From: Malacoraja senta
Lineage: Eukaryota
Direction: 5' to 3'
NCBI GenBank assembly: GCA_038087875.1
Contig: CM075988.1
Coordinates: 12,712,001 to 12,776,000 of the forward strand
Length of the DNA stretch: 64,000 nt
The notes below the pieces were generated by a model that saw only the letters and a list, made by a program, of their open reading frames with translations, was not told the DNA's origin and made no database searches. Both the position numbers and the translations under genes were made by a program. Shown piece after piece: positions 9,041 to 61,539 of the stretch; position 1 is the stretch's first letter; every line of letters begins with the position of its first letter.

Positions 9041-9231
9041 GTATAGCATGTAGGGGTCAAAGGGTGATGTGCCATGGAAATAGGACCATTTGGCCCATCA
9101 CATTCCACACTGACCTCTGGACACCCATTCATTTTAATCGATCTTCCACCCCTTGTCCTGTAGCCTTCAATGCCTACAAGATTCAAATGCTCACATGGAC
9201 ACTTCAGCAGAAACAAATTATGAGTTTCTTT

Positions 9232-9510
9232 ACTTTAGAGATACAGCGCAGAAACAGGTCCTTCAGCCCACCGACTCCACGCTGACCAGCGATCACCCCA
9301 TACACTAGCGCTATCTGACACCCTAGGGACAATTTACATTTTTTTACCAAAGTCAATTAACCTACAAACCTGTTTGTCTTTGGACCACCCGGAGAAAACC
9401 CAGCTAGTCACAGGGACAATGAACAAACTCCGTGCAGACAGCACCCATAGTCAGGATCGAACCCGGGTCTCTGGCGCTGTTAGGCAGCAAATCTACTGCT
9501 GCGGCACTGT
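9232..9510 (-). mobile_element. HE1/V-SINE-type SINE
   Basis: Tail, core and tRNA-like head (caggatcgaacccgggtctctggcgctg = reverse complement of B box). Confidence 0.9.
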
Positions 9511-9819
9511 TCTAACCACTTTTCTGCTTTAACCCTGTATCCCTTCATTTTCTTAAGATCAAAGAGCCCATCAGTCCAGGGACCGAGTGTGGGGTCAGAT
9601 AGATGATCATCTGACCTCCAGTGCATTCCTCACTTCCATACTTCATCGCACAAGCACAGGTCTAGGACCTGCTGGTGTTCACATTGCAACTCACAATTTT
9701 TATTTTTTCTGCAGTCGGCAACCTGCCAACTGTGCAATCCAGCTGAATACTTCAGGTCGATGGTCTCTCATCAGAAGACTGAATTTTCAATGATATCTCT
9801 ATTGCATCTTCAAACTTCC

Positions 9820-11339: not shown

Positions 11340-11870
11340 GTGGGTGAAATATGTGTGTGGTATGTTGATGGAACAAGGAGGGGAAGGGGTGGAAATGGGT
11401 GTGGGGTGGCTGAATGGTGGCTCTTTGAAAGGGGAAAAATTGGAGGATCGGAGATGGGTCGGAAGAGAGAGTGAGGAGTGGGGTCGATGGGGTACACAGG
11501 AGGTAAGGGTTACCTAACATTGCAAAATTCAATCTTCATGCCCCTGGGCAGTAGACATCCCAAGAGGTTTATGAGGTATTGTTCCTCTAGTTCGTGATGG
11601 ACCTCACCGTGGCAGTGGAGAAGTCTGAGGGCAAGCAGGTCAGTGTGGGAAAAGGAAGGGAAGTTGAAATGGCATGTAACTGAGAGCTCAAGATGGCTAT
11701 TACAGATAGAGCACAGAAGCTTTGCAAATGTGTCGCCTTGTCTCAGCTTGGTCTCACTGATGTAAAGGAGGCTATCACAGGAGCACTAAATACAGTCGAC
11801 AAGGTTGGAGCAGGTGCACCTGAGCCTTTGCCACACCTGGAAGGACTATTTAGGTGGTGGTGAGATGATA
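11340..11870 (-). mobile_element. Penelope-like element remnant: GIY-YIG endonuclease pseudo-ORF (about 11845-11512) plus 3' UTR
   Basis: Minus-strand translation FQVWQRLRCTCSNLVDCI*CSCDSLLYISETK...CHFNFPSFSHTDL..LLHCHGE..ELEEQYLI..LG.LLPRGMKIEF has PLE GIY-YIG motifs with a stop. Confidence 0.85.
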
Positions 11871-11914
11871 GTGAGAGGAGATCTGACAAAACATGACATA
11901 TGCTAATTGCCTGG

Positions 11915-12405
11915 TTCAATGCTGATGGTGTACAGTGGACTCGACAACAATGCCTTCTGCATAAGACGATGAATCGAGACCTCGTATGTTCTCTCAAGTA
12001 AACGTAAAAGTATAAACAAATCCAATCTTTTTTTAAAAAGGCAAAGGGGTTATTTGGGCCAATACTTGTCCCTCACACAATATCACTGTCAGATTATCTG
12101 GGCTTCATCACATTCATCTTTGTGCAAGTTGTGCGGATTTCAGGGGTTATAGGGAGAAGGCAGGAGAATGAGGCTGAGAGGAAAAGATAGATCAGCCATG
12201 ATTGAATGGTGGAGTAGACTTGATGGGAATGGCCTAATTCTGCTCTTATCACTTATGAACTTATCAAGTTTGTTGAGTGCAAATGGGCTGCCTCATTTGC
12301 CATGTTACAGGTTTGGCGAGACTACAAAAACATTTCCTTAGCTGTCAAGAGCTTTGGAATAACTTGAAAGAGTAAAAGTTGCAATAGGAAAGCAGGTCTA
12401 TTTAA
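11915..12405 (+). mobile_element. Deu-domain SINE (SacSINE1-like) interrupted by a CR1 tail (about 12135-12265)
   Basis: aagacgatgaatcgagacctcgt..gtaaaag; ggccaatacttgtccctca..cagattatctgg; gcaaatgggctgcc...agctgtcaagagctttgg. Confidence 0.65.
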
Positions 12406-13457
12406 ATCTTACAATTTCCACTAACCTTCTTCTATCGTGTCCATCTTCCATGTTTCAAATGTTGACATCGCTGTCATTGTCCGTCCTGAAAGGGACGCAA
12501 GCTTCTGGCGACAATCAGTGGGAGCCATCATTTGTTGCAATAGATGATGGTGGTACCAGAATTAGCTCAGGATACTTCCAGTTTCCAGCCCCGCGACGTG
12601 GACGTTTCTGCTATAGGGCCTCCACTGACCTAATATCATGTTTTATCTGCTCTGCTGATAAGAGCTAGCCTGTGATCCAAAATCACAAGATGCATCTACT
12701 TCAAGTGATCGACACCTACATAAAATGTTAAAGGTCTTGCATACCATCTTAATACGAACCCCATGCTTTAAAAATCAGAAGAAAGATAAATGCATTGAAA
12801 TGGTCTGAATCTTCCCTGAATCACCTTGAGCAACAGCAGAGAAGATATTTAATATTACAGAAAAGTTGTTTAAGTTCTTATCCTTTTGCAAAGTTTCTCA
12901 AATTATACAGGGAACAAATTAACACAATTTTCTCTTTTATTCCATCACCGGCATTTTATGTCAATTAACTTTCAGAAGGTTAGCAGCAATTTGCCTACTT
13001 AAAATTCCAGAACTAAATTAATTGAGTTGTTAACTCTTTTAACTTCATTCACACTGCAAGTCTTGACTGTCATTTTGGCCTCTGTGGGTTAATGTGCATG
13101 TTATTGCTTGGCCAAGATCCACCACAATAATCAACCGACCTTGTCAATTTCATTCTGTAATTCATGATTTGTAAGATCACATCACATGCGATACTTGTAA
13201 GTTTAACTCATTTTAGACTGCTTTAATTCAACATATTTTGTCAAAATCCAACAAAAAAATCTGCAAGAATTGAATTTGAATGTTTTAGATCTGGAAAAAA
13301 AAATAAAACAAAAACCACACTTAAAAGGTAATTAATGAATCATAAAGCAAAAAAATCTACTTCATCACAGTCAGTCTTGAGGTGTACAAAGTCAGGTAAT
13401 TCTCACATGTTACCATATGTCATAAAAAATAAGGCACTTTGACAAAATAAATATATA

Positions 13458-13693
13458 GTTTAATTTAGTTTAGTTTAGAGATACAGCGTGGAAACAGGCC
13501 CTTCAGCCCACCAAATCTGCACCGACCAGTGATCTCTGCGCACACTTGGGACAATTATTACACTATCCGACACACACTTGGGACAATTATTACATTTACT
13601 GTATACCAAGCCAATTAGCCTACAAGCCTGTACGTCTTTGGAGTGTGGGAGGAAACCGAAGATCACGGGGAAAATGTGCAAACTCCGGACAGA
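13458..13693 (-). mobile_element. HE1/V-SINE-type SINE lacking its head
   Basis: (ttagt)n tail and core; small internal tandem duplication cacacttgggacaattattaca x2. Confidence 0.9.
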
Positions 13694-13695
13694 AA

Positions 13696-13901
13696 ATCAA
13701 TCAATCAATCAGTTTTATTCATCACATGCCACATATAAATGCAGTGAAATGAATTTGCCAGCAGCGGTACAATCAAAAAAGGACACATAATACACAATAA
13801 AATATAACACAAACATCTACCACAGCATTCTTCACTGTGGTGGAAGGCACAAAGTACAGTCAGTCCTCCTCCATTGTTCACCTGTGGTCGGGACCATAAA
13901 C
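13696..13901 (-). mobile_element. 5'-truncated copy of the GC-rich non-autonomous retroposon family
   Basis: (aatc)n tail; near-identical to about 63345-63555, including the ccacagcattcttcactgtgg hairpin. Confidence 0.85.
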
Positions 13902-14754
13902 CATGATATTAGGTCAGTGGAGGCCCCATAGCAGGACCTGTAATTGCTGATAATTTCAATTAAAGTGTAATTTAGGACTCATGGTGAAAATTGATTTGAT
14001 TTTGTTTTTATCATTTTTATCTTTAAAATATCTGGAAGGAATATAATTGAATTCCTTAATTCCTAATGCTTTTTCTCATTGACACTGTAATGCTTCAGAT
14101 TCGCTACCTTTCCATTCTATATTGTGGTATGAGTTCTGTGGTCACAGCTATAAGATGTGGCAGGAAATGCATGTTGACACTGTTGCTCAGTACATCTTAG
14201 TTTCTGGGGTGTGCAGAGATTAAATAAGCTTTATACGCACAAGCACTCAGTTCGATGGTAATATTAGTTATCATTCAGCACTAACATATTACTTTACACA
14301 AACAGTCCTTCAGTAAATGTTGTGGGTGAAATACAATGAAAAGTAAAATGGCCTCTATGTTTAAATGTATATGGAGTAGATGGCTTGCAAGGGTGAAGGG
14401 AATGGAATCTGCCACTCATCATTCTTGTAGCTGACAGTAGCTTTATTTGTTAAAAGTAAATAACTGTGTATGGTCACAATATTATATTTCAGAGAAAATG
14501 AGCTAATGTAGAGACCACAGATCTCTCTCTGCAAAGTGCTTCTGGATAATATAAAAACCTGTTCTTTAAACACATTTGCTATTAATACAAAAGGGTAAAT
14601 TGATTTTGTGAGTAAGTAGCAATAGTGTTCCTGCTACTTATTCCTTTCTCTGGCATTTTTCATTCAGAAGAGTATTCCAAGTGAAGTCAATCTCGCTGCA
14701 TGAAGTAAACAAACATAGCTTTTAAAAAAATAATTGGTTAAAGTCTAGGTCTAT

Positions 14755-14960
14755 CATAAGATCATAAGTCCTTGGGCACAATTAGGATATTCTTCCCATT
14801 GAGTCTGCTCCATCATGGCTGATCACATTTTTCCATTTTTCCCATTCTCCTGACTTCTCCCCATAACTGTTGATGCCCTTACTATTCCAGAACCTATCAA
14901 ACTCCGCTTTAAAAATATCCAATGACGGCCTCCACAGCCACCTGTGGCAATGAATTCCAG
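14755..14960 (-). mobile_element. CR1-type LINE 3' end
   Basis: cataagatcataag tail...catggctgatc...ccacagccacctgtggcaatgaattcca. Confidence 0.8.
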
Positions 14961-15136
14961 CTCCTGTACATAAAATTTCAAGATTTTTTTTTCAGACAGT
15001 TTTTCTGCAACAAATTGATATCTTTATGAATTAGGAGCTGAAGCCTTAAATATTGTTGCTCAGTTCAGCTTAATGGTTATATTTGCAAAATGATAAATAT
15101 GTAAAGTTATCTCTATCGAGATAAGTGACCCTTTAA

Positions 15137-15424
15137 GTTTAGTTTAGTTTTGAGATACAGCATGGAAACAGGCCCTTCGGCCCACCGAGTCCACAGCAAC
15201 CAACGATCATCCGTACACTAGTTCTATCCTACACACTGGGGACAATTTACAGAAGGCAATTATTACAACCTGCACGTCTTTGGAATTTGGGTGGAAACCA
15301 GAGCACCCGGAGAAAACCCATGTGAACATACAAACTCCGTACAGACAACACCCATAGTCAGGATCAAACCCAGGTCTCTGGTGCTGTAAGGCAGCAACTC
15401 AAGCGCTGCACCACCGTGCTGCCC
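15137..15424 (-). mobile_element. HE1/V-SINE-type SINE, full length
   Basis: Tail, core and tRNA-like head (gctgcaccaccgtgctgccc). Confidence 0.92.
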
Positions 15425-15582
15425 CTGCTTAGGCGCCCATCCAGTGACAATCTTTTTGTAAGTTTAAAGTTTGCTGTATTTTCTTTATTGCGCAGAAAAC
15501 CATAGCTGGCAAAACAAGTCAAAACTTACCTCATCATATTTACATTGTTTTTTTTTACTGATTTCAATGAATTCTATCATTT

Positions 15583-15712: not shown

Positions 15713-16544
15713 CCACTTTATAAGACTCAAATAGTTTTTAAAAAACTGGTGAATGGTCCTTGGAGACCAAGGTTCTTCCCCTCCAAAAGCATCAAAAGAA
15801 AATTGGTCTTCAACCTTGATTTAACTCTCAACATTTGGCAGTACTTATCCTTATTTCACCCTTCATACAGTAAAAAAAAAGTTGAAAAGTATAATGTTGA
15901 ATTAATCAACATACTCTGTGATTTTATTTCCCCGATGTCTGGTAAATGTACTTTGGAATTGGTATTTCTAGATTACATTCATCCTACTGCAGTTTACAGA
16001 TGTGCATTGAGAATGAGCATAAACCTTGGATTTGATTTCAAAGGGTATGAACAGATAAGATTTATTGACCAGCCTTGGGTCTATTACTTTGATAAGCAGT
16101 CTGTCATTGTGCAATGATATATTTAGCTCAAATCCTGTTGAAAATATGCAGCAGGTTATTTCCCACTAAATTATTTATCATACCATCTACAATTTATCTG
16201 TTATCATTATTTAAAGTGTACAGAGTACCATTCACCCTGCCAATAACGTCACAAGTAGGATCGCAATTAAGATACTCTGTCAATAAATTTCCTGGCCATG
16301 CATAAATATTAGTGTCAACGTTCTGCGTTACTTCTCAGATCTGTTGGAAAAAAATGCCATTTGAATTGAAGTTATTCAAATTTGAGTCTATTGTGTGTCT
16401 GCATTGAATATTCTCATTTTCATTGTTCGCAACTATGCATCGAAGGGGCTGCTACAACAATTTACATGGCTACATAAAGCATGGTGTGTGTCGTTGATGT
16501 GACTGTGAACAGGGTCCACAGAGACTGGAGTTGTAAACACATAG

Positions 16545-16746
16545 AAGATAGACACAAAAATCTGGAGTAACTCATTGAGTCAGTCAGCATCTCTGGAGAA
16601 GAGTAATAGGTGACCTTTAGGATCGGGACCTTTCTTCAGTCTCGAAGTCTTCTTTTCTCCAGAGATGCTGTCTGAACTATTGAGTTACTCTAGCTTTTGG
16701 TTCTATCTTCAGTTTAAACCAGCATCTGCAGTTCCTTCCTACACAT
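16545..16746. mobile_element. Fold-back PLE pLTR element
   Basis: Inverted arms; flanked by ttgtaaacaca (16531) and ttgtaaataca (16748). Confidence 0.85.
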
Positions 16747-17051
16747 TTTGTAAATACAATACAGTATTTATTCAGCAAGACCAGCAGAAATTCTGGAAGA
16801 ATCTCACAGCTCAAAATACATTTAGAAGCACGACGATAAAAACAGTTTCAATAGTTATAATTGTAGTTAACTTCAATATTTTGGGTGTAGACACAAAAAA
16901 CTTTCAGAATTATACATCTACAATGGAAATGTATGTTAACTGATAAGACATTGTTGAATATTTCATCGCGCTGTAGATTGAGTGAAGACCTGAACACAAA
17001 AACACTGACTCTCAAAATATTGTTCTTCTGTGATGCTGTTGAAAGTTAAAT

Positions 17052-18438: not shown

Positions 18439-18604
18439 TTAGGAACTGCATATGCTGGTTTACACCAAAGATAGAGGATAGACACAAAATGTTGGAGTAA
18501 TTCAGCACGGGTGACATTTCGGGCCTGAGGAAGGGTCTCGACCGGAAACGTCAGCTTCTATCCTGAGATGCTGCCTGCCCCGAGTTACTCAAGCATTTTG
18601 TGTC
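18439..18604. mobile_element. Fold-back PLE pLTR element inserted in an old CR1 (about 18220-18690)
   Basis: Perfect 13-bp TSD tgccttcaaaaga at 18426-18438 and 18605-18617; ctgaggaagggtctcgaccggaaacgtc core. Confidence 0.88.
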
Positions 18605-24870: not shown

Positions 24871-25264
24871 TTATCAGGAAAAACCAAGAGGGAAGGATTT
24901 TGTCATCTCTCACCAAAATGGTTTGTGGTGAGGATTACCCTGATCCATATGCGCCAAACCATTACATCGCTAGAGGCCTCATGTCACTCAGAAGATTGTT
25001 CAATGACTCCAAAATTCCGACGCCAGCCAGATTGGACAGTTAAATCTGTGGAAGTTGAGGGAATTGTGGAATGTAGGGTACAGGTTAGGAAGGTAGGTCT
25101 CAGTCCATGTTTTGGGTCAATTACTTTTCATCAGACCGGATGACATTGGGGATTAACATATTTTTAAATAAACGCAGAGCCAGGGAAAGGGCATAAAATA
25201 AAAAACAAAACCAATGTGTATGTCTCCAAAGGGGCAGAGTGATAGAATGCTCGAAGGAAAGATG

Positions 25265-25630
25265 ATAAGTTCATAATTTATAGGAGTATAATTAGGTCAT
25301 TCGGCCCATTAAGCCTTCTCCGCCATTCCATCATGGCTGATCTATCTCTCCCTCTCAACCTCATTTTCCTGCCATCTCCCCATTACCCCTGACATCTTTA
25401 CTAATCAAGAATCTGTCTATCTCTGCCGTAAAAATATTAATTGACTTGGCTTCCACAGCCTGCTGTGGCAATGAATTCCACAGATTCATTACCCTCTGAC
25501 TCAAGAAATTCCTCCGCATCTCCTTTCCAGAGGTTTTATTCTTTTATTCTGAAGCTATGGCCTCTGGCCCTGGACTCTGCCACTAGTGGAAATACCCTCT
25601 CCACATCCACTCTATCCTGGCCTTTCACGG
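25265..25630 (-). mobile_element. CR1-type LINE 3' end
   Basis: Translation VKGQDRVDVERVFPLVAESRARGHSFRIK plus 3' UTR. Confidence 0.9.
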
Positions 25631-30489: not shown

Positions 30490-30799
30490 CAGAGAAAGTT
30501 GAGTGGATTGATTCCTGGATTGAGAGTGCTGAGAAACATGTAGAGTAGAAAGGAAACATGTTCTCCGGTGTCAGGTGTGCCAGGGAATATCACTGAAATA
30601 TATAAAATTCTCAGAGCATTCATTCAGTGACAACCTGTTTCCTGGGATCCCAGCCTAGTATTAGGATCACAGGCTCTGGATATAAAATAGGCCACTGATG
30701 ATCTAGTTGAGTAAGCTCTGTCACTTGGTATGGTGAAGCTCTAGCGTTCATTGTCGCAGAAGGCTGTAGGTCCCTGAATGTATTTAACATACTAACTAT

Positions 30800-31014
30800 G
30801 TGTAAGAAGGAACTGCAGATGCTGGTTTTAACCATTGATAGACACAAAAAGCTGGAGTAACTCAGCGGGACAGGCAGCAACTCTGGAGAGAAGGAATGGG
30901 TGACATTTCTGGTCTAGACTGAAGAAGGGTCTCAACCCGAAACGTCACCCATGCCTTCTCTCCAGAGATGCTGCCTGTCCCACTGAGTTACTCCAGCTTT
31001 TTGTCTCTATCTTC
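30800..31014. mobile_element. Fold-back PLE pLTR element with TSD
   Basis: aacatactaactat (30786-30799) and aacatacaaactat (31015-31028); arms of about 70 bp. Confidence 0.9.
30919..30946 (+). ncRNA. Minimal (short stem III) hammerhead ribozyme core, putative
   Basis: CTGAAGA-A-GGGT[CTCA]ACCC-GAAA-CG-TC; palindromic ACGU; stem I not well formed. Confidence 0.6.
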
Positions 31015-31973
31015 AACATACAAACTATTTCCTTTGTGGGCTCTGGTGGAATCAAAAGATATGTGAATTAGCTGGAAAGGTAGAGCTGCAGAGAAACGGC
31101 AATAGTCATATATTTTCACTGTCAAAGAAAAGAAGATATGAAGTTGGAAAGCGCCATTGTAAGGAAGGAAATGTGACAACAAATTGAGATTTTAGGAATT
31201 TAGCCTTGTTTACTAGTTTTATGTTATAAGGAATATGTACTGATCACAACACCAGCTAGTCTCTGAAATGGAGACACAAGATCCTTTGTGCCCCCACTAT
31301 TATCTCAACCAAAAGATACTATCCCAATCAATGCTGCATAATATCAATATAATATAAATGTAATGATCAGTATCAATAGGTTTATTAGGTTTAATTTCCT
31401 GTAAAGCTTGTATCTGACAAATCAGAGGAGAACATGTGCTGCCTATTGAGCCATGATTGAATCTTGTTTGACCTCATCAGGATCCAGTATTGAGTTTGGA
31501 ATGAGCGACAACATGGGCAACATTAGAAAAATTGAACAATTCACTTGATAGGATGATGAAAGGCAATTAAGCTCTACAGTAGACACATACGAATCTGTGG
31601 ATGCTGGTATCTTAAGCAAAATGGAGGCACCATCTGTGGAGGGAATAACCAGGTGATATTTCAGGTCAGCACTTTTGTTTTGACTGATTTTTTTTTTGGG
31701 GTGGGGGGGAGAGAAATCTGGAGAAGAGAGTTCCTAGCTGTATTGTTTAAGTTCTCCAGAATCTCTATTTTCATCATCCTATTAGCATTATACACATAAC
31801 ATTATTGTATAAAATTTAAATGTTATGCTGAAAATAATGGTGAAATGTTACATAAAGCAGATTGAACAGCAGTTGCCAGCAACCATAGATGTACAAAAGT
31901 CAGAATGTTGCTGAAGGATTTACCTTCACTGCTGAATAATTGCCCTGTTCTTCCAAAGGCTTCTCCATGGCAT

Positions 31974-32694
31974 TTCAAAGGTTTCAAGGTCAGTTTATTG
32001 TCACATGTACCAATTAAGGTACAGTGATATGCGAAGCACCATACAGCCATACAATTTTTAAAAAGCAACAAGACAAACAACTATTTAAAGTTAACATAAA
32101 CATCCACCACAGCGGATTCCCCACATTCCTCACTGTGATGGAACGCAAAAAAATGCCAATCTTCTTCCTCTTGATTCTCCCACGGTCGGGGCAGTTGAGC
32201 CATCCGTAGGGGCGATCGAAGCCCCCACATCGGGGCAATCGAAATTCCCCCATCGGGGCAGTCAGAACCCCCGCGGCTTGGAGTTCCTGATGTCGGTTTC
32301 TGACCAGAGACCGCGGGTTCTGTGATCTAAAGTCTGCAAGCACCCATGGTTGGAGCTCCGAGGTCAATCCCTGGCAAATGGATCGCAGGCTCCGCAATGT
32401 TAAAGTCCCGTAGGCTCCCCGCGGTGGGGCACTCAAAATCGGTCTCCAGCAAAGGCCGCTGACTCCTCGATGTTAGGCCGCGGTGCGGACGGAGATACGA
32501 TACGGAAACAAATCGCATCTCCTTCGAGGTAAGAGATTAGAAAAAGTTTCCCCTAACTCCCCCCTCCATCTCCCACATATAAAACAAGCTAAAGAACACT
32601 AAAAACATACATTTAACATATACAATTAAAACACAAATAAGGAAAGGACAGACAGACTGTTGGCGAGGCAGCCATTGCTGGCGCCACCCGGTGG
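31974..32694 (-). mobile_element. GC-rich non-autonomous retroposon, apparently full length
   Basis: Minus 5' end ccaccgggtggcgccagcaatggctgcctcgccaacag; 3' end tgtgacaataaactgaccttgaaacc; colinear with 45044-45765. Confidence 0.85.
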
Positions 32695-33794: not shown

Positions 33795-33983
33795 GTGTAG
33801 GAAGGAACTGCAGATACTGGTTTAAATCGAAGGTAGACACAAAATGTTGGAGTAACTCAGTGGGACAGGCAGTATCGCTGGAGAGAAAGAGTGGGTGAAG
33901 TTGTCTGAAGAAGGGTCTCGACCCGAAACATCACCCATTCCTTCTCTCCAGAGATGCTGCCTGTCCCGCTGCGTTACTCCAGC
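33795..33983. mobile_element. Fold-back PLE pLTR element with TSD
   Basis: ctttagatttctcat (33780-33794) and ctttagatctctcat (33984-33998); core ctgaagaagggtctcgacccgaaacatc at 33905. Confidence 0.9.
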
Positions 33984-34728: not shown

Positions 34729-35644
34729 GTTATTTTCTGTATGTGGCTGAACATTTGGATTGTCGAAATAATCAGAGAATAGGAACCCTGTTTCAACTAT
34801 ATTTGGATTGGATAGGCTGAAGAAGAATTAGAACAACAATATGTTACCTTGTCTCTGGACTAAATGTTCCTGCGTTCTGAACTGCTCCAACTTTGGAATT
34901 GAGATGGGTCTAACGAAGAGACATAAAACATGGAGACATACTTGTTGATGGAAAACATAGACATAGTAGATGGAGATGAGGTATCTTTATCAGCATGGGC
35001 AAGTTGGGCTGAAGGGCATGTTTCCATGCTGTATGACTCGACAACTCTATAACTCTAAATTTAAAAAAATCCAAGCGACAATTTTACATTTTGGGTTTAT
35101 CATTAAGCACGAAGAGGAAATGGCTGCTGTGCAGAAACTCAATAGATCTTGAGCATGGCCAAGTAATCAAACTACGACTGCAGAGTTGTTTGCTTATCCC
35201 TTATGCCACACACATTAATGAGTTTTGTGGTGCGTTGGACTAGTTTATATTCCTCAGGCATTGAGAGCAATCAGATCTGAGCAATCAGTCAGCCCGATAA
35301 TGAATAGGAAGGTTTGTGTTATGGATTTAATTATTTCAGGATTTGCAAAGGTCAGCCAGCCAGCGATCTGCATTGTAATCGTACATCACATTAGAAGGCA
35401 GTTTCGCTGGTACCTAATTACCAAAAGCTAACTGCTAAATGTGTAAATTGACTATTTAAATCTATATCCTGATGTTAAGGAAGGATGGAAAAGACTGAAT
35501 TGAACAGTTAGTGTTCATGAGTAAGACAGCATTTGAAATGTTTGCCACAACTGCTTTTTGCAGCAGGTCGTCTATCAAGAGTAGTTGATGTTTCAAACAA
35601 TTTCTGAACTACTGTTCAAAATTATCATATAACTTTGCGAGTTT

Positions 35645-36969
<1,325 letters not shown>

Positions 36970-38538: not shown

Positions 38539-38851
38539 GTTTAGATTTTGGTTTAGTCTAGAGATACAGCACCAACTCGGGTATTTCGGCCCACCGAGTC
38601 CACGCCGACCAGTGATCTCTGTACTCCAGCACTATCCTACACACTAGGGACAATGTACCATCTTTACCGAAGACAATCAACCTACAAACCGGTCTTCGGA
38701 GTGTGGGAGGAAACCGGAGCACCTGGGGAAAATCCACACAGGTCACGGGGGAACATACCAACTCCGTACAGACGGCACCCATAGTCAGGATCGAACCTGG
38801 GTCTATAGTGCTGTAAGGCAGCAACTCTGCCGCAGTTCCATCATGCTACCG
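38539..38851 (-). mobile_element. HE1/V-SINE-type SINE
   Basis: Tail, core and head. Confidence 0.9.
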
Positions 38852-39074
38852 TTCATGATATTAAGTTAAGTACAAATGTTTCAACTGTAATACAGTCTGC
38901 TTTAATTGTGGCCTCTGCTTTCAAAATCAAAACCAAGCTGCAGGTCAGTTGTGGACACAACTGTTCCCCCCCTCCATCATTGCACTCAGGACCAATGTCT
39001 GAAGCTAACACAAAATGTATTTTGCACCATGCTCCTCAGCTGTTCAGTGGAATGCTGGCCAATGAAGGATAAAA

Positions 39075-39305
39075 TCATGAGGTCATAAGGAATAGTAGAA
39101 TTAGGCCATTTGGCCCATCAAGTCTACTCCGTCATTCAATCATGGCTGATCTATCTCTCCCTCCTAACCCCATTCTCCTGCCTTCTCCCCATAACCTCTG
39201 ACACCTGTACTAATCAAAAATCTATCTATGTCTGCCGTAAAAATATCCATTGACTTGGCCGTCACAGCCTTCTGTGGCAGAGAATTCCACAGATTCACCA
39301 CCCTC
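39075..39305 (-). mobile_element. Young CR1-type LINE 3' end
   Basis: Close match to 25265-25500 and 48920-49050. Confidence 0.9.
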
Positions 39306-39771: not shown

Positions 39772-40067
39772 TGTTTAGTTTAGAGATCAGGCGCGGAAAC
39801 AGGCCCTTCGGCCCACCGGGTTTGTGCCGACCAGCGATCCCCGCACATTAACACTATTCCTTTAGGGATAATGTTTACATTTGCCAAGCCAATTAACCTA
39901 CAAACCTATAATTCTTTGAAGTTTGGGAGGAAACCGAAGATCTTGGTGAAAACCCATGCAGGTCACGGGGCGAAGGCACAGGCGGAACCCGTAGTCGGGA
40001 TCGAACCCGGGTCTCCTGTGCTGCATTCGCTGTAAGGCAGCAACTCAACCATTGCGCCACCATGACC
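39772..40067 (-). mobile_element. HE1/V-SINE-type SINE (subfamily with gcattc insert in the tRNA-like head)
   Basis: Tail, core and head gggatcgaacccgggtctcc..gctgcattcgctgtaaggcagc. Confidence 0.92.
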
Positions 40068-45043: not shown

Positions 45044-45765
45044 TTCAAGGTCAGTTTAAGGTTTCAAGGTCAGTTTATTGTCACATGTACCAGTTAAGGT
45101 ACAGTGAAATTTGAGTTACCATACAGCCAAACTAAGTCAAAAGCAACAAGACACACAACCACATAAAAACTATCATAACCATCCATCACAGTGGATTCCA
45201 CATTCCTCACTGTGATGGAAGGCAATAAAGTTCAATCTTATTCCTCTTGTTCTCCCGCGGTAGGGGAAGTCAAACAATCCGCAGTCGGGGCGATCAAAGC
45301 CCCCGCAGCCACGATCAAAGCCCCCATCGGGCAGTTGAAACTCTCTCTGCGGCATGGAGTTCCCGAGTCGGACTCTTTTACCAGAGACCGTGGGCGTCAC
45401 GATGTTAAAGTCCACAGGCCCCGCGGTTGGAGCTTTGATCCCCGACAAAGGGATCGCAAGCTCTGCGATGTTAAAATTCCGCACACTCCTGCGGCTTGGA
45501 GCACCTGCCGGTCTGCAGGAAAGGCCGCCAACTCCATGATGTTAGGCCGCAGTGGAGACAGAGATACGATGCGGAAAAATATTGTATGTCTGACAAGGTA
45601 TGAGATTGAAAAAAAGTTTTCCCCAACCCCCACCCCCACCCCCCACACATAAAACAAACCAAAGAACACTAAAACATACTTTTTAACACATACTAAAAAT
45701 AGCAAAAAGAAGAAAGGACAGACAGACTGTTGGCGATGCAGCCACTGCAGGTGGCACCACCCCGG
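45044..45765 (-). mobile_element. GC-rich non-autonomous retroposon, full length
   Basis: Colinear with 31974-32694 from tail to 5' end. Confidence 0.88.
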
Positions 45766-46719: not shown

Positions 46720-47490
46720 ATGAAGAATGGGCAACAGACTTTGACCACAACTAATCATTTTCCACAATATGCTCTTAAATGCTATCCTCTCAGCCAGACC
46801 AAGGTTAGGGTTCCTCTTGACTTCATCTTCCACCACCTCAACCTTGACATTGAATTAACCTTCATGCCTTTCACCACCTTCAAGGAGATTACCTGCATAG
46901 CCTCGCCTCCCCTCCCAGTGCCCTGAAGTGAACTGAACAATTCCCTTTGCATTTCTCTGATCTGCTCTTCCATCTTTACTAACCATTCAGCAATTCATTT
47001 ACACTTCAAATCTAGTTGATTGCATTCCACGTTCATGATAAATCCCCCTCTATCTTGGAGAATCAAAATGTCAATTGATTGATTGCTTTCGACAGCACAT
47101 CCATTCAGTTCATAGGATCAAGCCTATTTTCCCTGTTGTTGTCATTTTATTTCTCCATTCCACTCTTTTATTTTCTTTCACTCTCTCAAACGGCCTCATT
47201 AATCTGTTAGCCAGACAGTGTAGTAATCAACATTATCACCTGGACAATCATAGACTTTTCCTTTCAGACTTTCCTCTCGTATTTAACCCTCCCTCATCCA
47301 CTCTGGAATTTAAAACTAATTAGTTTTTTTTTTTACCAGTTTGGACAAGAGATCTGCAACTTACAATGTTAACTATGTCTCTCCACAGATGCTGCCTGCC
47401 TAACAACAGCTTTTCACTGTACCTCAGTATTCCTGAGTGTTCCCAGCATTTTCTGTTTTTATCTCGGGTTTGCAGCATCTGCAGTTTCTT
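46720..47490 (+). mobile_element. Old PLE remnant (linker, GIY-YIG, 3' end), right arm
   Basis: KVRVPLDFIFHH (cf. RVPLVLTFHP), PLYLGESKCQLIDCFRQHIHSV; pLTR tail ctctccacagatgctgcc...cagcatctgcagttt. Confidence 0.7.
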
Positions 47491-48919
47491 TTAACTTTCA
47501 ATCGCTGGCTGCAGTTGACCTCACTTTAAGTCCCACATTGATAAACACAAGACAAGGTATTATGTTAGAATGCCTCGGTTATTAATAAAATAAAAAACAG
47601 TTAGTATTTGAAAAGTAGTTAGTTTAATTGTGAGGTCTAAATCACTGTGACAGTTTAATACTCGGTATTTTATGATGAAATTAATCTGTGAGAAAATAAT
47701 ACTAAGCATTAAAGGAAAGAATTTACCTTGTAAATGTGTACTCACTCCAGGGAAGTTGATAATTTGCTGTTCTGCACATTTTTTGTTTACAAATCTAATG
47801 CATAAGTTTATGAGCTCATAAATTCAGAGTAAAAGGTGCAGAACTCCATGGGCTAAAGCTGATTAAAGTTTTTCTCTCTTATAAGTCTTTGCTCCACTCC
47901 TGATGTTATTTAGATAATCCACAATAGCAAAGCTAAATCTCTTTGCCTTCATTTTGTTTATTATCTCGGCAGTCTGAGTTATCATCCTAATCAATGGGTA
48001 TGAACCTTGGCTGTTAGCCACTGCTGACTTTGCAGATCTTTATTGTGTAAAATATCCCTCATAACTCACTGCTACCTCCTTTCGGAGAGCCTTTCCCAGC
48101 AACAGGACAGCTCAAATTAATCCTTCTACAAAAATGTGGTAATAGTTTGTCCCTCGTCAGCTTCTATTCCCCAATGATACAATTCTTCCTGGCGCTGTCA
48201 CAAGATGGAATGTGTTAGTGAGTGAGGATAAGCTCCAGAGAATTGCTTGACAGCCCAAGAACTTGCCCACCTCCACCGGGTGCTTCAGTAAGTGGAGAAT
48301 TAGGTTATTAGCGTTTTAATAACGGATGAGCCCTTTGCTGAGCAACAGTTGTTTGGAATAGTAATCCAGTATGTGACATTATTTCCCCAAAATGAATATC
48401 CAGCTCTGCTTTAATGGCTGGTCGACAGGTTGTATCCTCTCTAAGTTCTCTATCGCTGGTTCATTGGATGTAGTTATGAATCAGGGAAGTACTTGAGCAT
48501 GGAATCGTGTATCGTGGAATATACAACATTTGAAGCCGTGTTTTTTTTGTGTTTTTGAATGGGTGGGGTGAGGAGAGAAGAAAAAAATTCAATGAATCTG
48601 CTGATGGAGTTGGCTAAGTTAGAGTTGAATTCAGACAACTCAGTCGGCAGATTCATTGATGTATTTTTTTCTACTCTTCTCATCAAGTCTTGCTTCCTCT
48701 TGACCAGAATTTGCTGCCTCTGCAATGTCACCCACACTTAGCACCTGCATAAAGACCAATTGATTACTTAACTGATGTTCATTCTTCCGGCTCTGATAGA
48801 CTTTTCCCAATTGAAAATAATGAAGCCCTAAGCTGTGTAACATTGTCTTGCAAGTGTGACAATGTTCAGAACAAGTCCTATCTGAGAAAGAGCTAGGGGA
48901 AAATAAAAACACCCAGGAA

Positions 48920-49122
48920 AGGTCATAAGGGTAGAATTAGCCCATTCGGCCCATCAAGTCTACTTCACCATTCAATCATGGCTGATCTATCTCTCCATCC
49001 AAACCCCATTCTCCTGCCTTCTCCCCATAACCGTACTAATCAAGAATCTGGTTGCTCAACACTTAAACTCCCCCTCCCCCTCCCATTCCCACGCAAACCT
49101 TTCTGTCCTGGGTCTCCTCCAA
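48920..49122. mobile_element. CR1 tail (minus) fused to a short PLE endonuclease fragment (plus, about 49049-49122)
   Basis: CR1 tail motif followed by VAQHLNSPSPSHSHANLSVLGLL. Confidence 0.75.
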
Positions 49123-49399
49123 TAATTCAAAACTAGAAATGATTGAAAATAAAATAAATTGCTAAAATAAGCAGTGCAAAGTTAAATTAAATCAAAATGT
49201 TGAAATGAGCATTTATTGCCCTTCTCCTTTGCAGCCATTTCTCACTGTTCAAATGAATGGACGTCCTTGTCCCAGATCAAAAATAAAGTCACAGAAGGCA
49301 GATTTCCATAGCTGGGTAATTTAGACATGTTTGTGTTTTGCTGTTGATTTAGTTGGAGCTACAACACTGGAAAGAGGCAGAAGCATTGCTAACATGGTC

Positions 49400-49695
49400 T
49401 TTAGAGATATGCTGCATGGAGACAGGCCCATCAGCCCACTGAATCAGCACCAAAACTGATCACCCTGTATGTTAGCACTATTCTACACACTAGGGACAAT
49501 TCACAATTTTATGGAAACCATTTAACCTACAAACCTGTACGTCTTTGGAGGGTGTAAGGAAACTGGTGCACCTGGAGTAAACCCACGTAGTCACAAGGAG
49601 AACGTACAAATTCCGTACAGACAGCACCTGTGGTTAGCATCGACCCTGGGTCTCTGGCACTGTAAGGCAGCAACTCTGCAAAACTGTGGCACCCT
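49400..49695 (-). mobile_element. HE1/V-SINE-type SINE
   Basis: Tail, core and head. Confidence 0.88.
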
Positions 49696-50534: not shown

Positions 50535-52118
50535 ATGAACAACAAACCACTTCACCGTCTCAGGGTACTGGCTGCACATGTCATTGGATGCCTTCTGAGA
50601 ACACCACTGCTTGGGAGGTGACGACACAAATTGTCAACATTCCTGTTTCATTCTGTGAAGGATGAGTGGTTTCAACCCATAAACTTGACAGCCGGAATCA
50701 CCACAAACACTGGTGCTAATGGAGAAGTCTGGACAGGAAGTTGATTTTCACTCAGTGAAAATTGGGGACAATTCTCTGGGGAAGCAGAGACCAGAAACCT
50801 CCATTGTCAGAGTAAGGCGAAACGCAAATCTCATATTTTGCTTGGGCAGCTTACTGCCCAGTGGTATGAATATTGATTTCTCTAACTTCAGGTAGCCGCA
50901 GCATTCCTTCTCTCTCCATCCCTCCCCCACCCAAGTAGCCCTAATCTCTTGTTTGCACCCTACAAACAGCTACCAATGGCCTGTTTCCTTTAACATTGGT
51001 ACTGTTTTGCATATCTTTCATTCATTGTTCTTTATCTCCCTACATTACCATCTATATCTCTCGCTTCCCTTATCCCTAACCAGTCCGAAGAAGGGTCTCG
51101 ACCCAAAATTTCACCCATTCCTTCTCTCCAAAGATGCCGCTTGTCCCGTTGAGTTACTCCAGCATGTTGAGCCTATCTTCAACCAGAAACCATTGCTGGA
51201 GTTGCAGTTCGTTTCTTCAACCATTTGCTCACTCCGTTAGCAATTTAATTTGTGTGAAGCTCATTGAAATGAATATAATGCAGGAAAATCTTTGTCTGAA
51301 TAGATTTTCATATTTTAATATTTGAGGAGCACAAAGGCCACACTTTCAATCAGATGGATTATTCTAAATGTATTTCACTTTTTTTTCCCCCACACTGTCC
51401 ACCATTCTTGCCCAGTCTCTCGCATGTAACTTAATTTATTGAAGATATTTGAAATAGGATGATTTAACAAATAGAAAGGTATAATATTGAGCTCTGAAAG
51501 TACTCTCAATTTACCAAGTAAAATTGAAATGGATTATCCAGGAGAAGTTGTGCAATAATCTAGCAATCAACTCGAGTCAATATTGATTAAGGTGAAGGAG
51601 ATCCAGTTGGATCAACTTGTTTGGAGGAAATGGTTTGAGTAAAGTTTTTAGTTTGTTTTATTTTATTATTGTCACTGCCCAGTGAACTTTTATGACTTTG
51701 TTGGCTCCAGAAACGTGCACTGTCTAGGTGAGGTCTGCAGTATGATTTTACCGGGTTGTATGCAAAACAGCCCACTGGGCAGTAAGCTGCCCAAGCGAAA
51801 TATGAGATGATGTTCCTCCAATTTGCGTTTCGCCTCACTCTGACAATGGAGGTTTCTGGTCTCTGCTTCCCCAGAGAATTATCCCCAGTTTTCACTGTGT
51901 GAAAATTAACTTCCTGTCCAGACTTCTCCATTAGCGCCAGTGTTTGTGGTGATTATCCCAGCTGTCAAGTTATTGGGTTGAAACCACTCATCCTTCACAG
52001 AATGAAACAGAAATGTTGACAATTTGTGTCGTCACCTCCCAAGCAGTGGTGTTCTCAGAAGCCATCCAATGACATGTGCAGCCAGTACCCTTAGACGGTG
52101 AAGTGGTTTGTCGTTCAT
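50535..52118. repeat. Inverted duplication, arms 50535-50864 and 51772-52118
   Basis: Arms are reverse complements over about 330 bp with a few substitutions and two indels (14 and 3 nt). Confidence 0.95.
50799..51215 (+). mobile_element. PLE 3' fragment: endonuclease C-terminus, 3' UTR, decayed hammerhead and pLTR tail
   Basis: LHCQSKAKRK..LIFCLGSLLPSGMNIDFSNFR* followed by ccgaagaagggtctcgacccaaaatttcacccattcc at about 51085; links the short family to a PLE ORF. Confidence 0.9.
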
Positions 52119-53197: not shown

Positions 53198-54030
53198 TCA
53201 AGTTCAAGTTCAAATTACATTTGTTGTCACGTGCACCAATTGGTACAGTGAGATTTGAGATACCACAAAGCCATACCAATAAAAAGAACACAATACAAGA
53301 TAGGATTTGACATGAACATCCCCACACAGTAGAATCAACGTTTCCCACTGTGAGGGAAGGCAATAAAGTTCAGTCATCTTCCTCTTTGTTCACCCGTTGT
53401 TGGGGCTTTTGAACCCTCCGCAGTCGCCACTACGGCGGCCCGATGTTCAGGCCCTCTCGCCGAGATGCTCGGAACTCCGACGTCGGAATGGAGAACACTC
53501 TCAGTGGCTTGGAGTTTCCGAATCGGCCACTTCCTACCAGAGAACACGGCACCTGAGGTCCACAGGCCAAGCTGGATGGAGATTCAATGCTGGCAACCCT
53601 CGGCAAAAGATCCCAGAACTCCGCGATGTTAAAGTCAGCGCCGCCCGCGGCTAGAAGCTCCACAAACCACAGCTCCACGATGTTAAAGCAGCAGGCCCAA
53701 CACGGCGATCCCCGGCAATGCATCGTCCCACTCCGCGATGGAATCCAGTGCTGCACCACTGCTGAAGCTCTGGCCAGTCTCTGGCAGGAAAGGCTGCGCC
53801 AATCCAGATGGTAGGGGGAGGGCAAAGATGCGACTCGGAGAAGAGTCGCATCCTCGACCAGGAAGTGACTGAGAAAACGGTTTCCACTCTTCCCCCCCCC
53901 CCCCCCCCCCACATCCCCTCCATAAAAAAGACGAAGAAACCTCCAAACCATACTTTTGACACACTAAAAATAACAAAAAGGGTGAAATGACAGACAAACT
54001 GCTGGCGAGTCTGTCGCGCGTGCGCCACCC
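53198..54030 (-). mobile_element. GC-rich non-autonomous retroposon, related subfamily
   Basis: (ttcaag)n tail, cacagtagaatcaacgtttcccactgtg hairpin region, 5' end gggtggcgcacgcgcgacagactcgccagcag. Confidence 0.82.
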
Positions 54031-54244: not shown

Positions 54245-55090
54245 GATTAGTTTATTATTGTCAACTGTACAGAAATAGAATGAAAAGCTTGATATCCAGT
54301 GAAAACATATCATATGTGAGTACGATCAAGCCATATACAAGTACAACAGGTGGTGTAAAGAGAAAATTAACCAGAGTGCAGAATATCGCGGTGGAGTTAC
54401 TGCCTTACAGTGCTTGAAGCGCCGGAGACCCGGGTTCGATGCTGACTATGGGTGCTGTTTGTAACGGAGTTTGTACGTTCTCCCCGTGTCAAAGTGGGTT
54501 TTCTCCGAGATCTTTGGTTTCCTCCCACACTCCAAAGACGTACAGGTTTGAAGGTAGATTGGCTTGGTATATGTGTAAATTGTCCCCTGTGTATGTAGGG
54601 CAGTGTTAATGTGTGTGGATCACTGGTCAGTGCGGACTCAGTGGGCCAAAGAGCCAGTTTCTCCCCATGTACATTCTCCCCATGACCGCATGGGTTTTCT
54701 CCAGGTGCTCCAGCATCCTCCCGGGTACTCCAAAGACGTACAGGTTTGTAGGTTAATTGGGTTCATAAAAAATTGTAAATTATCCCTAATGTGTAGGGTA
54801 GTGCTTGTGTATGGGGATCGCTTGTCAGCGCGGACTCGGTGGGCTGATGGGCCTGTTTCCGCGTTCTATCTCTAAACTAAACTAAACAGGAGAAGACGTT
54901 GTTCCTGAATCTGTTGATACATGCTTTCAAGTTATTGCATCTTCTGCCCAATGGGAGAGGGGAGAAGAGGTTATGACCAGGGTTTCATTGGCCCATGATA
55001 TGTTGGCTGTTTTCCTGATGCAGTATGAAGTGTGGATAGAATCGATGGTGGGAGGGGAGAGGGAAGGCTGGTTTGTGTGATGGACTGACC
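54245..55090 (-). mobile_element. Rex1/Babar-like LINE 3' remnant interrupted by two SINEs
   Basis: tttattattgtca tail; gttgttcctgaatctg...gggagaggggagaagag..tgaccaggg shared with 52400-52500. Confidence 0.75.
54388..54887 (+). mobile_element. Tandem pair of HE1/V-SINE-type SINEs (about 54388-54660 and 54668-54887)
   Basis: One tRNA-like head (ggagacccgggttcgatgctgac), two core/tail units, (ctaaa)n end. Confidence 0.9.
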
Positions 55091-56597: not shown

Positions 56598-56880
56598 TTT
56601 ACTTTGGACTTTAGAGATACAACGTGGAAACAGGCCCTTCGGCCCACCGAGTCCACGTCACCCTGTATACTAGCACTATCCTACCCACTGGGAACAATTT
56701 GTAATTTACCAAAGCCAATTAACCTGCAAACCTGCACATCTTTGGAATGTGGAATGAAATCGGAGCACCCGGTCACAGGGAGAACCTACAAACTCTTTAC
56801 AGACCGCACCCATGCTCAGGATCGAACCCGGGTCTCTGGCACTATAAGGCAGCAGCCCTGCCGCTGCGCCACTGTGCCTC
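56598..56880 (-). mobile_element. HE1/V-SINE-type SINE
   Basis: Tail, core and head. Confidence 0.9.
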
Positions 56881-60220: not shown

Positions 60221-60516
60221 TAGAACTGCAGATGCTGGTTTATACCAAAAATAGACACAGTGCTGGCGTAACTCGGCGGGTCAGATAACACCTCTTGCGA
60301 AAAAAGATGTCCCAATCTTATCTCTAATTTCCCTTATCCGTTACCAGTCTGTATCTCTCATTTATTTCCCTTATCCCTAACCAGTCTGAAGAAGGGTCTC
60401 GAACCAAAATGTCACCCATACCTTCTCTCCAGAGATGCTGCATGTTCTGCTGAGTTACTCCAGCTTTTTGTGTCTATCTTCAGTTTAAACCAGCATCTGC
60501 AGTTCCTTCCTACACA
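60221..60516. mobile_element. Fold-back PLE pLTR element with longer sense arm
   Basis: Antisense arm 60221-60310; duplicated tttcccttatcc..accagtctg; core at about 60386; ends ttccttcctacac. Confidence 0.85.
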
Positions 60517-60620: not shown

Positions 60621-60873
60621 AGAAGGAACTGCAGATGCTGTTTAAATTGGATAGACACAAAATGCTGGAGTAACTCAGCAGCTCAGGTAGCATCCCTGGA
60701 GAAAATGGACAGGTGACTAAAGTCTGAAGAAGTCTCCTTCAGTCTGAAGAAGGGTCCCCCCGACCTGAAACGTCACCTATGCATGTTTTCCAGGGGGTGC
60801 TGCCTGACCTGCTGAGTTACTCTAGTATTTTGTGTGTTTCCTTGGTAAACCAGCATCTGAAGTTTCTTGTTTC
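60621..60873. mobile_element. Fold-back PLE pLTR element
   Basis: Inverted arms; centre agtctgaagaagtctccttcagtctgaagaaggg with a duplicated box. Confidence 0.85.
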
Positions 60874-61343
60874 AACTCTATCTCTTTTTTTTGTTCTCGA
60901 TTCTCCTCTGCTTTTTGTGTTGACCTGGAATGCAGTCCCGTGAATCGGCTGCTGTTCACCTGTGACTAAAATGCTAAACAGTTGAGGTTAATTTGTTCCA
61001 ACCTGCTGGGCTGGTGGTAAACAATCTGGAATGGCAGATTTTCCATTCCAAAGTCCACAAGACCATTCTACACTTAAAATGTCGTGATTGGGATCACTTA
61101 ACTGAGAGCAACAATAACATAGAATGTACCAGCTGCTGGCAATGTTATTATGATGGCTGGGGGTGGTCTGAAAAATATACTTTGTAAAAAATTCCAATCA
61201 AAGCATACCTGAAGGAGAGTTTTGATGGAACCAGAGTTTCCTGAAGGCATAGCGATTTGTGAAAAGGATAATAATAGACTTCAAGGTGATATCGGCAGGC
61301 TGGTGGAACAAATGGACAGGCTGAGCAACATGAAGTGTTGCAT

Positions 61344-61539
61344 GGTACACAAATATGCTGGAGAAACTCAGCGGGTGCAGCAGCATCTATGGAGCGAAGG
61401 AAATAGGCAACGTTCTGAAGAAGGGTTTCGGCCCGAAACGTTGCCTATTTCTTTCGCTCCACAGATGCTGCTGCACCCGCTGAGTTTCTCCAGCATTTTT
61501 GTGTACCTTCGATTTTCCAGCATCTGCAGTTCCTTCTTA
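61344..61539. mobile_element. Young fold-back PLE pLTR element (second subfamily) with perfect 17-bp TSD
   Basis: aacatgaagtgttgcat at 61327-61343 and 61540-61556; about 70-bp near-perfect inverted arms. Confidence 0.93.
61415..61442 (+). ncRNA. Minimal hammerhead ribozyme core, putative
   Basis: CTGAAGA-A-GGGT[TTCG]GCCC-GAAA-CG-TT. Confidence 0.6.

What the first reader, a model, noticed from the sequence alone, without database searches (positions are those of the whole stretch)
30919..30946. Minimal hammerhead ribozyme core at the centre of the hairpin elements
Seen: CUGAAGA-A, a 4-bp stem II with tetraloop (GGGU-CUCA-ACCC here; GGGU-UUCG-GCCC at 61415; GGGU-CUCG-ACCC at 33905), then GAAA, CG and U(C/U). 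Stem II pairing is retained across two subfamilies. Established: PLE pLTRs carry minimal hammerheads with a palindromic short stem III (here ACGU) that cleave as dimers. Caveat: in the native context (cagt-CUGAAGA...GUC-acc) stem I is only about 2 bp, and most copies show CpG decay (GAAA to AAAA, CGTC to CATC), so activity is unproven.
Basis: partly seen in the sequence, partly recalled or inferred. Interest (0 to 1): 0.7.

Follow-up and report, generated by a model that had tools for sequence, protein, structure and literature searches.

The report
Ribozyme relic in skate-like retrotransposon fragments
This is the stub of a self-cutting RNA motif already known from Penelope-type jumping genes, left in many short, decaying copies in what looks like a skate or ray genome, and here it is probably folded shut and inactive.

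Summary
The motif is real. At 30919-30946 lies a complete minimal type I hammerhead core of the kind described in Penelope-like elements (PLEs; Cervera and de la Pena 2014). It belongs to a PLE family with about 22 loci in the window. One copy (50800-51181) links it to a GIY-YIG endonuclease end whose relatives are from skates, rays and sharks. The 30919 hairpin is one insertion: two head-to-head truncated arms, a tail on one end only, and a 14-bp target duplication. That is known PLE anatomy. The same core in 44 unrelated families covaries strongly in stems I and II. Within this family there is no two-sided covariation, and the core decays as fast as its tail. At 30919 the inversion removed stem I, and the long arms bury the cleavage site (about 17 kcal/mol predicted), so this copy is probably inactive. 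The least expected point is that most copies stop abruptly at the ribozyme's 5' edge, not at its cut site, and end at two fixed 3' sites. This fits reverse transcription started inside an uncut RNA and running off its 5' end. New member of a known kind; modest interest.

The parts
30919..30946 (+). Minimal type I hammerhead core: CUGAAGA 30919-30925, extra A 30926, stem II 30927-30930/30935-30938, loop 30931-30934, GAAA 30939-30942, palindromic ACGU, C17 at 30946; nominal cut after 30946
30916..31014 (+). Sense arm: from 2-3 nt before the core to the short 3' end (about +97, counting C3 as +1)
30800..30919 (-). Inverted arm: covers +11 to the long 3' end (+131), with the ~35-nt tail; lacks CUGAAGA; joined to the sense arm through a 4-nt overlap
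30786..30799 (+). Left target-site duplication (13 of 14 identical)
31015..31028 (+). Right target-site duplication
61344..61539 (+). Second-subfamily hairpin insertion; intact core 61415-61442; exact 17-bp duplication at 61327-61343 and 61540-61556
33795..33983 (+). Hairpin insertion; core 33905-33932 with decayed stem III; 15-bp duplication (14 of 15)
50800..51181 (+). 5'-truncated PLE in native order: broken GIY-YIG C-terminus (stop at 50893-50895), pyrimidine-rich 3' UTR/pLTR, decayed core 51085-51112, short end; exact 10-bp duplication
60341..60516 (+). Copy with native upstream sequence, decayed core at 60386 and long tail; reference for the end mapping
60622..60874 (+). Third-subfamily hairpin with a complex junction; core at 60744 has a 7-nt loop 2
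18439..18604 (+). Hairpin insertion, core at 18525 with the closing stem II pair broken; exact 13-bp duplication
16542..16747 (-). Hairpin insertion, decayed core at 16639; 11-bp duplication (10 of 11, below my score cut-off)
11513..11896 (-). Separate decayed PLE endonuclease remnant (about 128 codons with stops); no recognisable hammerhead downstream
51772..51851 (-). Second copy of the endonuclease C-terminus, inside an inverted duplicate of 50535-50864

Best explanation
The motif is a minimal type I hammerhead inherited from the terminal repeat (pLTR) of an endonuclease-bearing Penelope-like retroelement, probably Neptune-type, of a skate- or ray-like host. The 30919 locus is a single dead insertion of two truncated head-to-head arms. 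SHOWN: core sequence, PLE context, target duplications, two fixed 3' ends about 35 nt apart, neutral decay. INFERRED, about 80%: this copy does not self-cleave, since it has no stem I and its arms pair with GAAACGUC and the cut site. INFERRED, about 60%: in the parent element the motif worked, if at all, as a weak dimeric or protein-assisted ribozyme, two ACGU palindromes forming stem III. INFERRED, about 45%: the short copies arise when the PLE protein starts reverse transcription inside the RNA at +97 or +131 and runs off the 5' end of an uncut transcript that begins 2-3 nt before the core. Hairpins then arise when both target ends are primed, or the cDNA folds back, and the products join through the small CAG-N-CTG palindrome or other short overlaps. 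The confidence value refers to identity plus inactivity.
For: Context: copy 50800-51181 runs endonuclease end, UTR, core, tail. The endonuclease piece hits 56 proteins; 9 of 10 looked up carry names, from skates, rays and whale shark. GIY-YIG scores weakly in 3 of 10 scanned, and longer relatives carry RT plus GIY-YIG. One shark-derived model protein, P0062, reads through endonuclease and UTR into residues that fit this core. Architecture: with two stem II pairs, the loop, N7, N17 and stem I left free, 121 distinct metagenome hits in 44 families gave pair 10.3-11.3 in 41 of 44 (null mean 18.8, maximum 30), pair 10.4-11.4 in 34 of 44 (17.1, 28), stem I of 2 bp or more in 35 of 44, and non-G at N17 in 39 of 44. 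18 of 124 loci have PLE ORF upstream on the same strand. 25 of 113 hits have an inverted arm just upstream. Anatomy: target duplications score 10 or more in 4 of 7 hairpins and 3 of 15 single arms, against 1 of 297 random intervals. 3' ends: 16 of 32 at +79 to +103, 14 of 32 at +120 to +135, none between; 5' ends: 15 of 32 at -3 to +4. In sequencing contigs depth rises about fourfold at the core's 5' edge, without a step at the cut site. Inactivity: freeing the core costs 16.7 kcal/mol at 30919 and 11.5 at 61415. Non-CpG divergence is 14 of 186 in core plus stem II against 47 of 550 in the tail, p=0.76.
Against: No Rfam hammerhead match. No two-sided covariation within the family. No RT remnant or full element in the window, and no genome was available, so the parent, its clade and the position of its ORF start were not seen. 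Single-arm copies are also predicted to misfold by 3.7-9.2 kcal/mol, so burial is not peculiar to hairpins, and folding energies ignore protein help. The 5' step is partly confounded: other subfamilies have different native sequence upstream, and contig depth is not copy number. The metagenome hits share no sequence with this family outside the core. The upstream sequence fits a splice acceptor as well as an initiator. No RNA data.
Confidence: 0.82

Rival explanations
1. The short copies come from a non-autonomous master of about 134 nt (SINE-like, or a retrozyme-like tandem unit) moved in trans by the PLE protein, with tandem dimers that self-cleave and may circularise.
For: Sharp unit ends. 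Contig joints that go back from 60516 to 60382-60385 occur in all 4 runs laid (for example 41, 40, 38 and 23 contigs in X3). Vertebrate retrozymes derive from pLTRs and were found in the one chondrichthyan examined.
Against: No tandem array in the window. The joints are few beside about 190,000 contigs laid (joint counts were incomplete), and the intervening sequence is 'not known'. No copy has tail sequence directly upstream. At least three subfamilies show the same short forms. The hammerhead is minimal, not the canonical type described for retrozymes.
Confidence: 0.2
2. The hairpins are themselves a palindromic, MITE-like master that was copied and then lost part of its centre, with the core kept in the loop for a purpose.
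For: Long inverted arms with target duplications. A similar junction recurs at 30919 and 16640. At 61415 and 33905 stem II and CUGAAGA are predicted to stay open in the loop.
Against: Junctions otherwise differ among the 7 hairpins, and the arms have unequal outer ends. One arm always starts at -3 to +1. Inverted truncated pLTRs with a one-sided tail are published PLE by-products. The cut site is paired.
Confidence: 0.1
3. The motif is no longer a ribozyme even in the parent element. It persists as a promoter, splice-acceptor or protein-binding sequence that still looks like a hammerhead.
For: Stem I is only 2 bp. Copies keep the whole core, so their templates were uncut. In the anole PLE, hammerhead mutants did not impair insertion in vitro and no RNA-seq ends mapped to the cut site. 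Published minimal hammerheads cleave poorly; 8 of 9 frog dimers did not cleave.
Against: Pairing in stems I and II and the non-G rule at N17 are kept across 44 families. 13 of those 44 also have only 2 bp of stem I. The anole motif does cleave when its protein is present.
Confidence: 0.3
4. Chance resemblance within a repeat.
For: No Rfam match; no covariation within the family.
Against: Exact match to the published minimal architecture at the expected place in a PLE, and cross-family covariation beyond all 5000 shuffles.
Confidence: 0.02

Closest known systems
[quoted passage not shown]
   Same: Core order, extra nucleotide after A9, G10.1-C11.1 pair, palindromic 15.2-16.2 without loop 3, pLTR position, mostly solo truncated copies, opposite-strand pairs.
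   Different: Helix II is 4 bp (7-8 bp in Schistosoma) and helix I is 2 bp (4-5 bp there, 2 bp in D. virilis). No cartilaginous fish appears in the text read or the supplement searched; one supplementary file could not be searched.
Poseidon PLE of Anolis carolinensis (Frangieh et al. 2024, PMC11167929)
   Same: Hammerhead near the pLTR/ORF junction; two internal reverse-transcription starts downstream of it that define a 30-40 nt tail.
   Different: Different clade: relatives of this endonuclease carry the CX2-5CxxC linker of Neptune/Nematis. Activity and protein assistance are untested here.
Inverted, 5'-truncated pLTR structures of EN+ PLEs (Arkhipova et al. 2013, PMC3846280; Craig et al. 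2021, PMC8557442)
   Same: Head-to-head inverted copies, palindromes at the junction, tail at one end, target duplications of about 10 bp.
   Different: Here both arms are only 70-135 nt with no ORF, the duplications are 10-17 bp, and one arm starts at a fixed point at the hammerhead edge.
Non-LTR retrozymes (Cervera and de la Pena 2020, PMC7229834; Li et al. 2026, bioRxiv 10.64898/2026.07.22.740005)
   Same: Short non-coding pLTR-related units with a type I hammerhead.
   Different: No tandem array in the window, minimal rather than canonical ribozyme, inverted rather than direct repeats.

Membership tests
PLE minimal type I hammerhead | CUGANGA ... GAAA ... UH core in type I order | tested here: met
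   30919 and 61415 intact, 60744 with a longer loop
PLE minimal type I hammerhead | Extra nucleotide after A9 and G10.1-C11.1 pair | tested here: met
   hallmarks
PLE minimal type I hammerhead | Palindromic 15.2-16.2 allowing an intermolecular stem III | tested here: met
   ACGU at 30942-30945; lost by CpG decay in most copies
PLE minimal type I hammerhead | Helix II supported by compensatory change | tested here: inconclusive
   Strong across 44 unrelated families; absent within this family
PLE minimal type I hammerhead | Helix I (2-5 bp in published cases) | tested here: inconclusive
   2 bp in native context (51085, 60386); 0 bp at 30919, 1 bp at 61415
PLE minimal type I hammerhead | Lies in the pLTR downstream of a PLE ORF | tested here: met
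   50800-51181
PLE minimal type I hammerhead | Weak self-cleavage as a dimer or with protein | not testable with these tools
   Needs an in vitro assay
Rfam hammerhead families | Covariance-model match | tested here: not met
   No hammerhead family among 25 matches at E up to 5
EN+ Penelope-like element | C-terminal GIY-YIG endonuclease | tested here: met
   Remnants match GIY-YIG-bearing proteins; Pfam scores lie mostly just under the curated cut-off
EN+ Penelope-like element | RT in the same ORF | tested here: inconclusive
   Present in homologues P0063, P0064, P0066, P0067; no RT remnant in the window
EN+ Penelope-like element | Inverted 5'-truncated copy, one-sided 30-40 nt tail, target duplication | tested here: met
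Neptune clade | CX2-5CxxC linker before the endonuclease; RT phylogeny | tested here: inconclusive
   Linker seen in homologues P0063 and P0066 (definition), not in the window; shared with Nematis; no RT tree made
Non-LTR retrozyme | Head-to-tail tandem units each with a hammerhead | tested here: not met
   None in the window; rare ambiguous joints in contigs
Non-LTR retrozyme | Expressed linear and circular monomer RNAs | not testable with these tools
   No RNA run on record was listed

The most novel reading that the evidence does not exclude
The very abundant 100-135-nt hammerhead-bearing repeats of these genomes are 'strong-stop' insertions. The PLE protein primes reverse transcription at its two internal sites on the 5'-terminal repeat of its own uncut RNA and runs off a transcription start 2-3 nt before the core, which would also explain why stem I can be only 2 bp. 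Hairpins record both target ends being primed in one event, one from each start site. If so, these repeats are a very large natural read-out of the unresolved PLE mechanism, and the same process would explain the solo minimal hammerheads scattered through many animal genomes.
Probability: 0.4. Interest if true: 0.58.

Novelty: new member of a known kind. Interest (0 to 1): 0.3.

Why it matters
As a ribozyme it is a further instance of a class published in 2014, in a lineage where my searches found no description of this family. It labels a dense repeat, about one locus per 3 kb here, that could be mistaken for a MITE or a microRNA hairpin (the only Rfam matches on it were sub-threshold, mostly microRNA models). 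The end geometry matters more. What PLE hammerheads do and how inverted repeats and tails form are stated as open questions, and this family offers very many insertions with sharp ends on which to test them.

Tried and rejected
Rfam scan: no hammerhead match. Own-genome search: no genome held. Viral contigs: 0 matches. Metagenome loci share no DNA similarity with the family beyond the core, so they test the architecture only. Pfam on 148 of 607 stop-to-stop frames of 45 aa or more: one sub-threshold hit, no host exon. Sequencing runs: no RNA holder listed, which is no evidence either way; only contigs could be laid. Earlier findings: nothing in 3 look-ups. Covariation within the family: none. 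Selection on the core in these copies: none detected, with low power (11 copies). 5' ends at the cleavage site: several inverted arms stop at +23 to +27, a few bases before it, and depth rises gradually there with no step; the tables were truncated. A longer native stem I, or a shared upstream exon restoring it: not seen. I first read some upstream CAGT stretches as short inverted arms; at 40265 they resemble the target duplication instead, so I count only 36606 as a short arm. Literature searches for this family in skates or sharks found no description; Repbase, Dfam and most subscription papers were not searchable.

Full report
OBSERVATION. The sequence at 30919-30946 is as described: CUGAAGA, an extra A, a 4-bp stem II with tetraloop, GAAA, CG, UC. 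61415 is also complete. 33905 has lost the stem III pair. The full structural motif occurs 2 times in the window and 0 times in each of 300 shuffles (my shuffle re-deals dinucleotide transitions). Rfam gives no hammerhead match at E up to 5, which is unsurprising for a motif without real stems I and III (inference). Positions below count C3 as +1, so the nominal cut is after +28.

THE FAMILY. The motif is part of a repeat with about 22 loci in 64 kb, in at least three subfamilies. An ungapped scan gave 21 rows, 2 of them antisense artefacts and some out of register; only 30919 and 61415 were fully intact. 60744 keeps the catalytic bases with a longer loop. In 11 copies of the main subfamily, CpG sites diverge at about 30% in both core and tail. 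Non-CpG sites diverge at 14 of 186 in core plus stem II and 47 of 550 in the tail (p=0.76). So there is no sign of selection on these copies, with modest power.

ORIGIN. Copy 50800-51181 has the native order: end of an ORF, stop, pyrimidine-rich UTR, core, tail, within an exact 10-bp duplication. A profile of that ORF end found 56 proteins. I looked up 10 of them: 9 carry names, from Rhinoraja, Leucoraja, Hypanus, Hemitrygon and Rhincodon, mostly host gene models that include a piece of the element. A separate search hit one Amblyraja model. GIY-YIG scored weakly in 3 of 10 proteins scanned. Longer relatives carry GIY-YIG (5 of 5) and RT (4 of 5), mostly near or under the curated cut-offs. P0063 and P0066 have the CX2-5CxxC linker of Neptune and Nematis. 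P0062, from a shark, reads through endonuclease and UTR into residues compatible with this core. Further endonuclease remnants lie at 11513-11896, 46988-47140, 49051-49119 and 51772-51851; no RT remnant was found. The host is therefore probably a skate or ray (inference; not determined).

IS THE FOLD REAL? I scanned metagenome contigs with a pattern that fixed the core and two stem II pairs and left the other two pairs, the loop, N7, N17 and all of stem I free. Of 121 distinct hits in 44 families, one per family: pair 10.3-11.3 in 41 of 44 (5000 shuffles: mean 18.8, maximum 30), pair 10.4-11.4 in 34 of 44 (17.1, 28), stem I of 2 bp or more in 35 of 44 (mean 2.9 against 0.7), non-G at N17 in 39 of 44; all four Watson-Crick types occur. 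The shuffle ignores relatedness between families. 18 of 124 loci have PLE ORF upstream on the same strand (62 loci had 500 nt or more upstream), and L024 has an ORF start downstream of the core. None resembles this family outside the core; their hosts were not determined. Within this family the result is negative: 0 of 6 pairs change on both sides in 18 copies. Among 173,000-203,000 contigs per DNA run from three organisms, listed variants at 3% or more are mostly CpG decay, a loop change and A to G at +29, with no paired change in stem II; 7 rows were not shown, and mapping favours the reference.

THE HAIRPIN. 30800-31014 is one insertion with a 14-bp duplication (13 of 14). Duplications score 10 or more in 4 of 7 hairpins and 3 of 15 single arms, against 1 of 297 random intervals. 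The sense arm runs -2 to +97, the inverted arm +11 to +131. Of 32 aligned pieces (including 2 weak ones and 1 upstream duplication), 16 end at +79 to +103, 14 at +120 to +135, none between. This matches the 30-40 nt tail found at one end of PLE insertions and the two internal reverse-transcription starts of the anole element. 25 of 113 metagenome hits also have an inverted arm just upstream, so hairpins centred on the hammerhead are general. At 30919 the junction replaced the base before C3, leaving no stem I. The arms pair with GAAACGUC and the cut site. Freeing the core costs 16.7 kcal/mol here, 11.5 at 61415 and 8.6 at 33905, but also 3.7-9.2 in single-arm contexts, where the purine-rich core often pairs with the downstream pyrimidine run. 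I judge these copies inactive at about 80%.

THE 5' EDGE. 15 of 32 pieces begin at -3 to +4, and 9 of 11 core-bearing arms of the main subfamily begin at -3 to +2 (ends are uncertain by a few bases). In the contigs, depth rises from 1.7 to 7.0 million across that edge in run X3, and 60382 is among the top loose ends in all 4 runs; there is no step at the cut site. This is confounded in part, because other subfamilies differ upstream and contig depth is not copy number. Copies keep the whole core, so their templates were uncut. The simplest reading is that the RNA ends there. The native bases before the core fit the initiator consensus (recalled, from no call); an initiator-like TCACT is reported in a rotifer pLTR, and one metagenome family shares mostly 7-9 nt upstream (range 3-15), including TCACT in 6 of 7. 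The same bases also fit a splice acceptor, and in D. virilis an intron ends at the 5' end of helix I. I favour a start site, with reverse transcription beginning internally on the 5' repeat and running off (about 45%). Hairpins would come from priming at both target ends, since the anole protein cuts and extends both strands, or from fold-back, as the 18-nt arm at 36606 suggests and as proposed earlier.

COMPARISON AND VERDICT. It works like, and by the features I could test belongs to, the minimal PLE hammerheads of Cervera and de la Pena 2014; helix I and activity remain open. It fails the retrozyme test in this window. I found no description of this family or of the run-off model, but Repbase, Dfam and most subscription journals were out of reach. 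New member of a known kind; interest 0.3.

PAPERS SEEN. PMC4209133: parts 1-2 of 4 (abstract, results, discussion, part of methods) and a term search of the supplements, in which file 1 was not searched and may list further species. PMC11167929: parts 1-2 of 4. bioRxiv 10.64898/2026.07.22.740005: parts 1-3 of 5; its supplements were not seen and may include this family for the chondrichthyan genome. PMC8557442, PMC3846280, PMC2377424, PMC7229834: passages only. All others: search listings only. No figures were visible.

Noticed in passing
window 50535-50864 (+) and 51772-52118 (-): An inverted duplicate, 91% identical, of about 260 bp of flank plus the start of the PLE endonuclease piece; it post-dates the insertion at 50800.
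   Followed up: partly
window 46988-47500 (+): Older PLE remnant: endonuclease piece, UTR, a heavily decayed core-like stretch at about 47340-47375 whose flanks suggest a longer stem I, and a divergent tail.
   Followed up: partly
window 60320-60560, contigs of runs X1, X3, X4, X6: Recurrent opposite-strand joints between 60464-60482 and 60516 (tail-to-tail, short end against long end) and direct joints from 60516 back to 60382-60385; intervening sequence unknown.
   Followed up: no
proteins P0001, P0002, P0003, P0005, P0019: Annotated skate and ray gene models (DCC, neuromedin-U receptor 1, VKORC1L1, ATP synthase c, LAMP3 isoforms) include the PLE endonuclease end; either exonisation or annotation error.
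   Followed up: no
window 3972-4229, 9229-9513, 13454-13934, 15132-15428, 38547-38850, 39773-40064, 49395-49679, 54388-54887, 56593-56884: A second abundant repeat of about 290 bp, more than 12 copies, SINE-like in size; not identified.
   Followed up: no
window 31978-32689, 45058-45762, 53220-54008, 63349-63606: A longer GC-richer repeat family of about 700 bp; not identified.
   Followed up: no
window 1813-1951, 12136-12266, 14753-14959, 25253-25496, 39064-39305, 48920-49050: A six-copy repeat of 130-240 bp; not identified.
   Followed up: no
window 35627-35920: (CA)n/(TA)n microsatellite complex that draws spurious microRNA model matches.
   Followed up: no
window 12555-12626 (-): Sub-threshold match to the CPEB3 ribozyme model (24.4 bits, cut-off 35, E 0.04); probably chance.
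   Followed up: no
L024:323-1849: Minimal hammerhead about 460 nt upstream of the N-terminus of a PLE ORF, showing the 5'-copy arrangement.
   Followed up: partly
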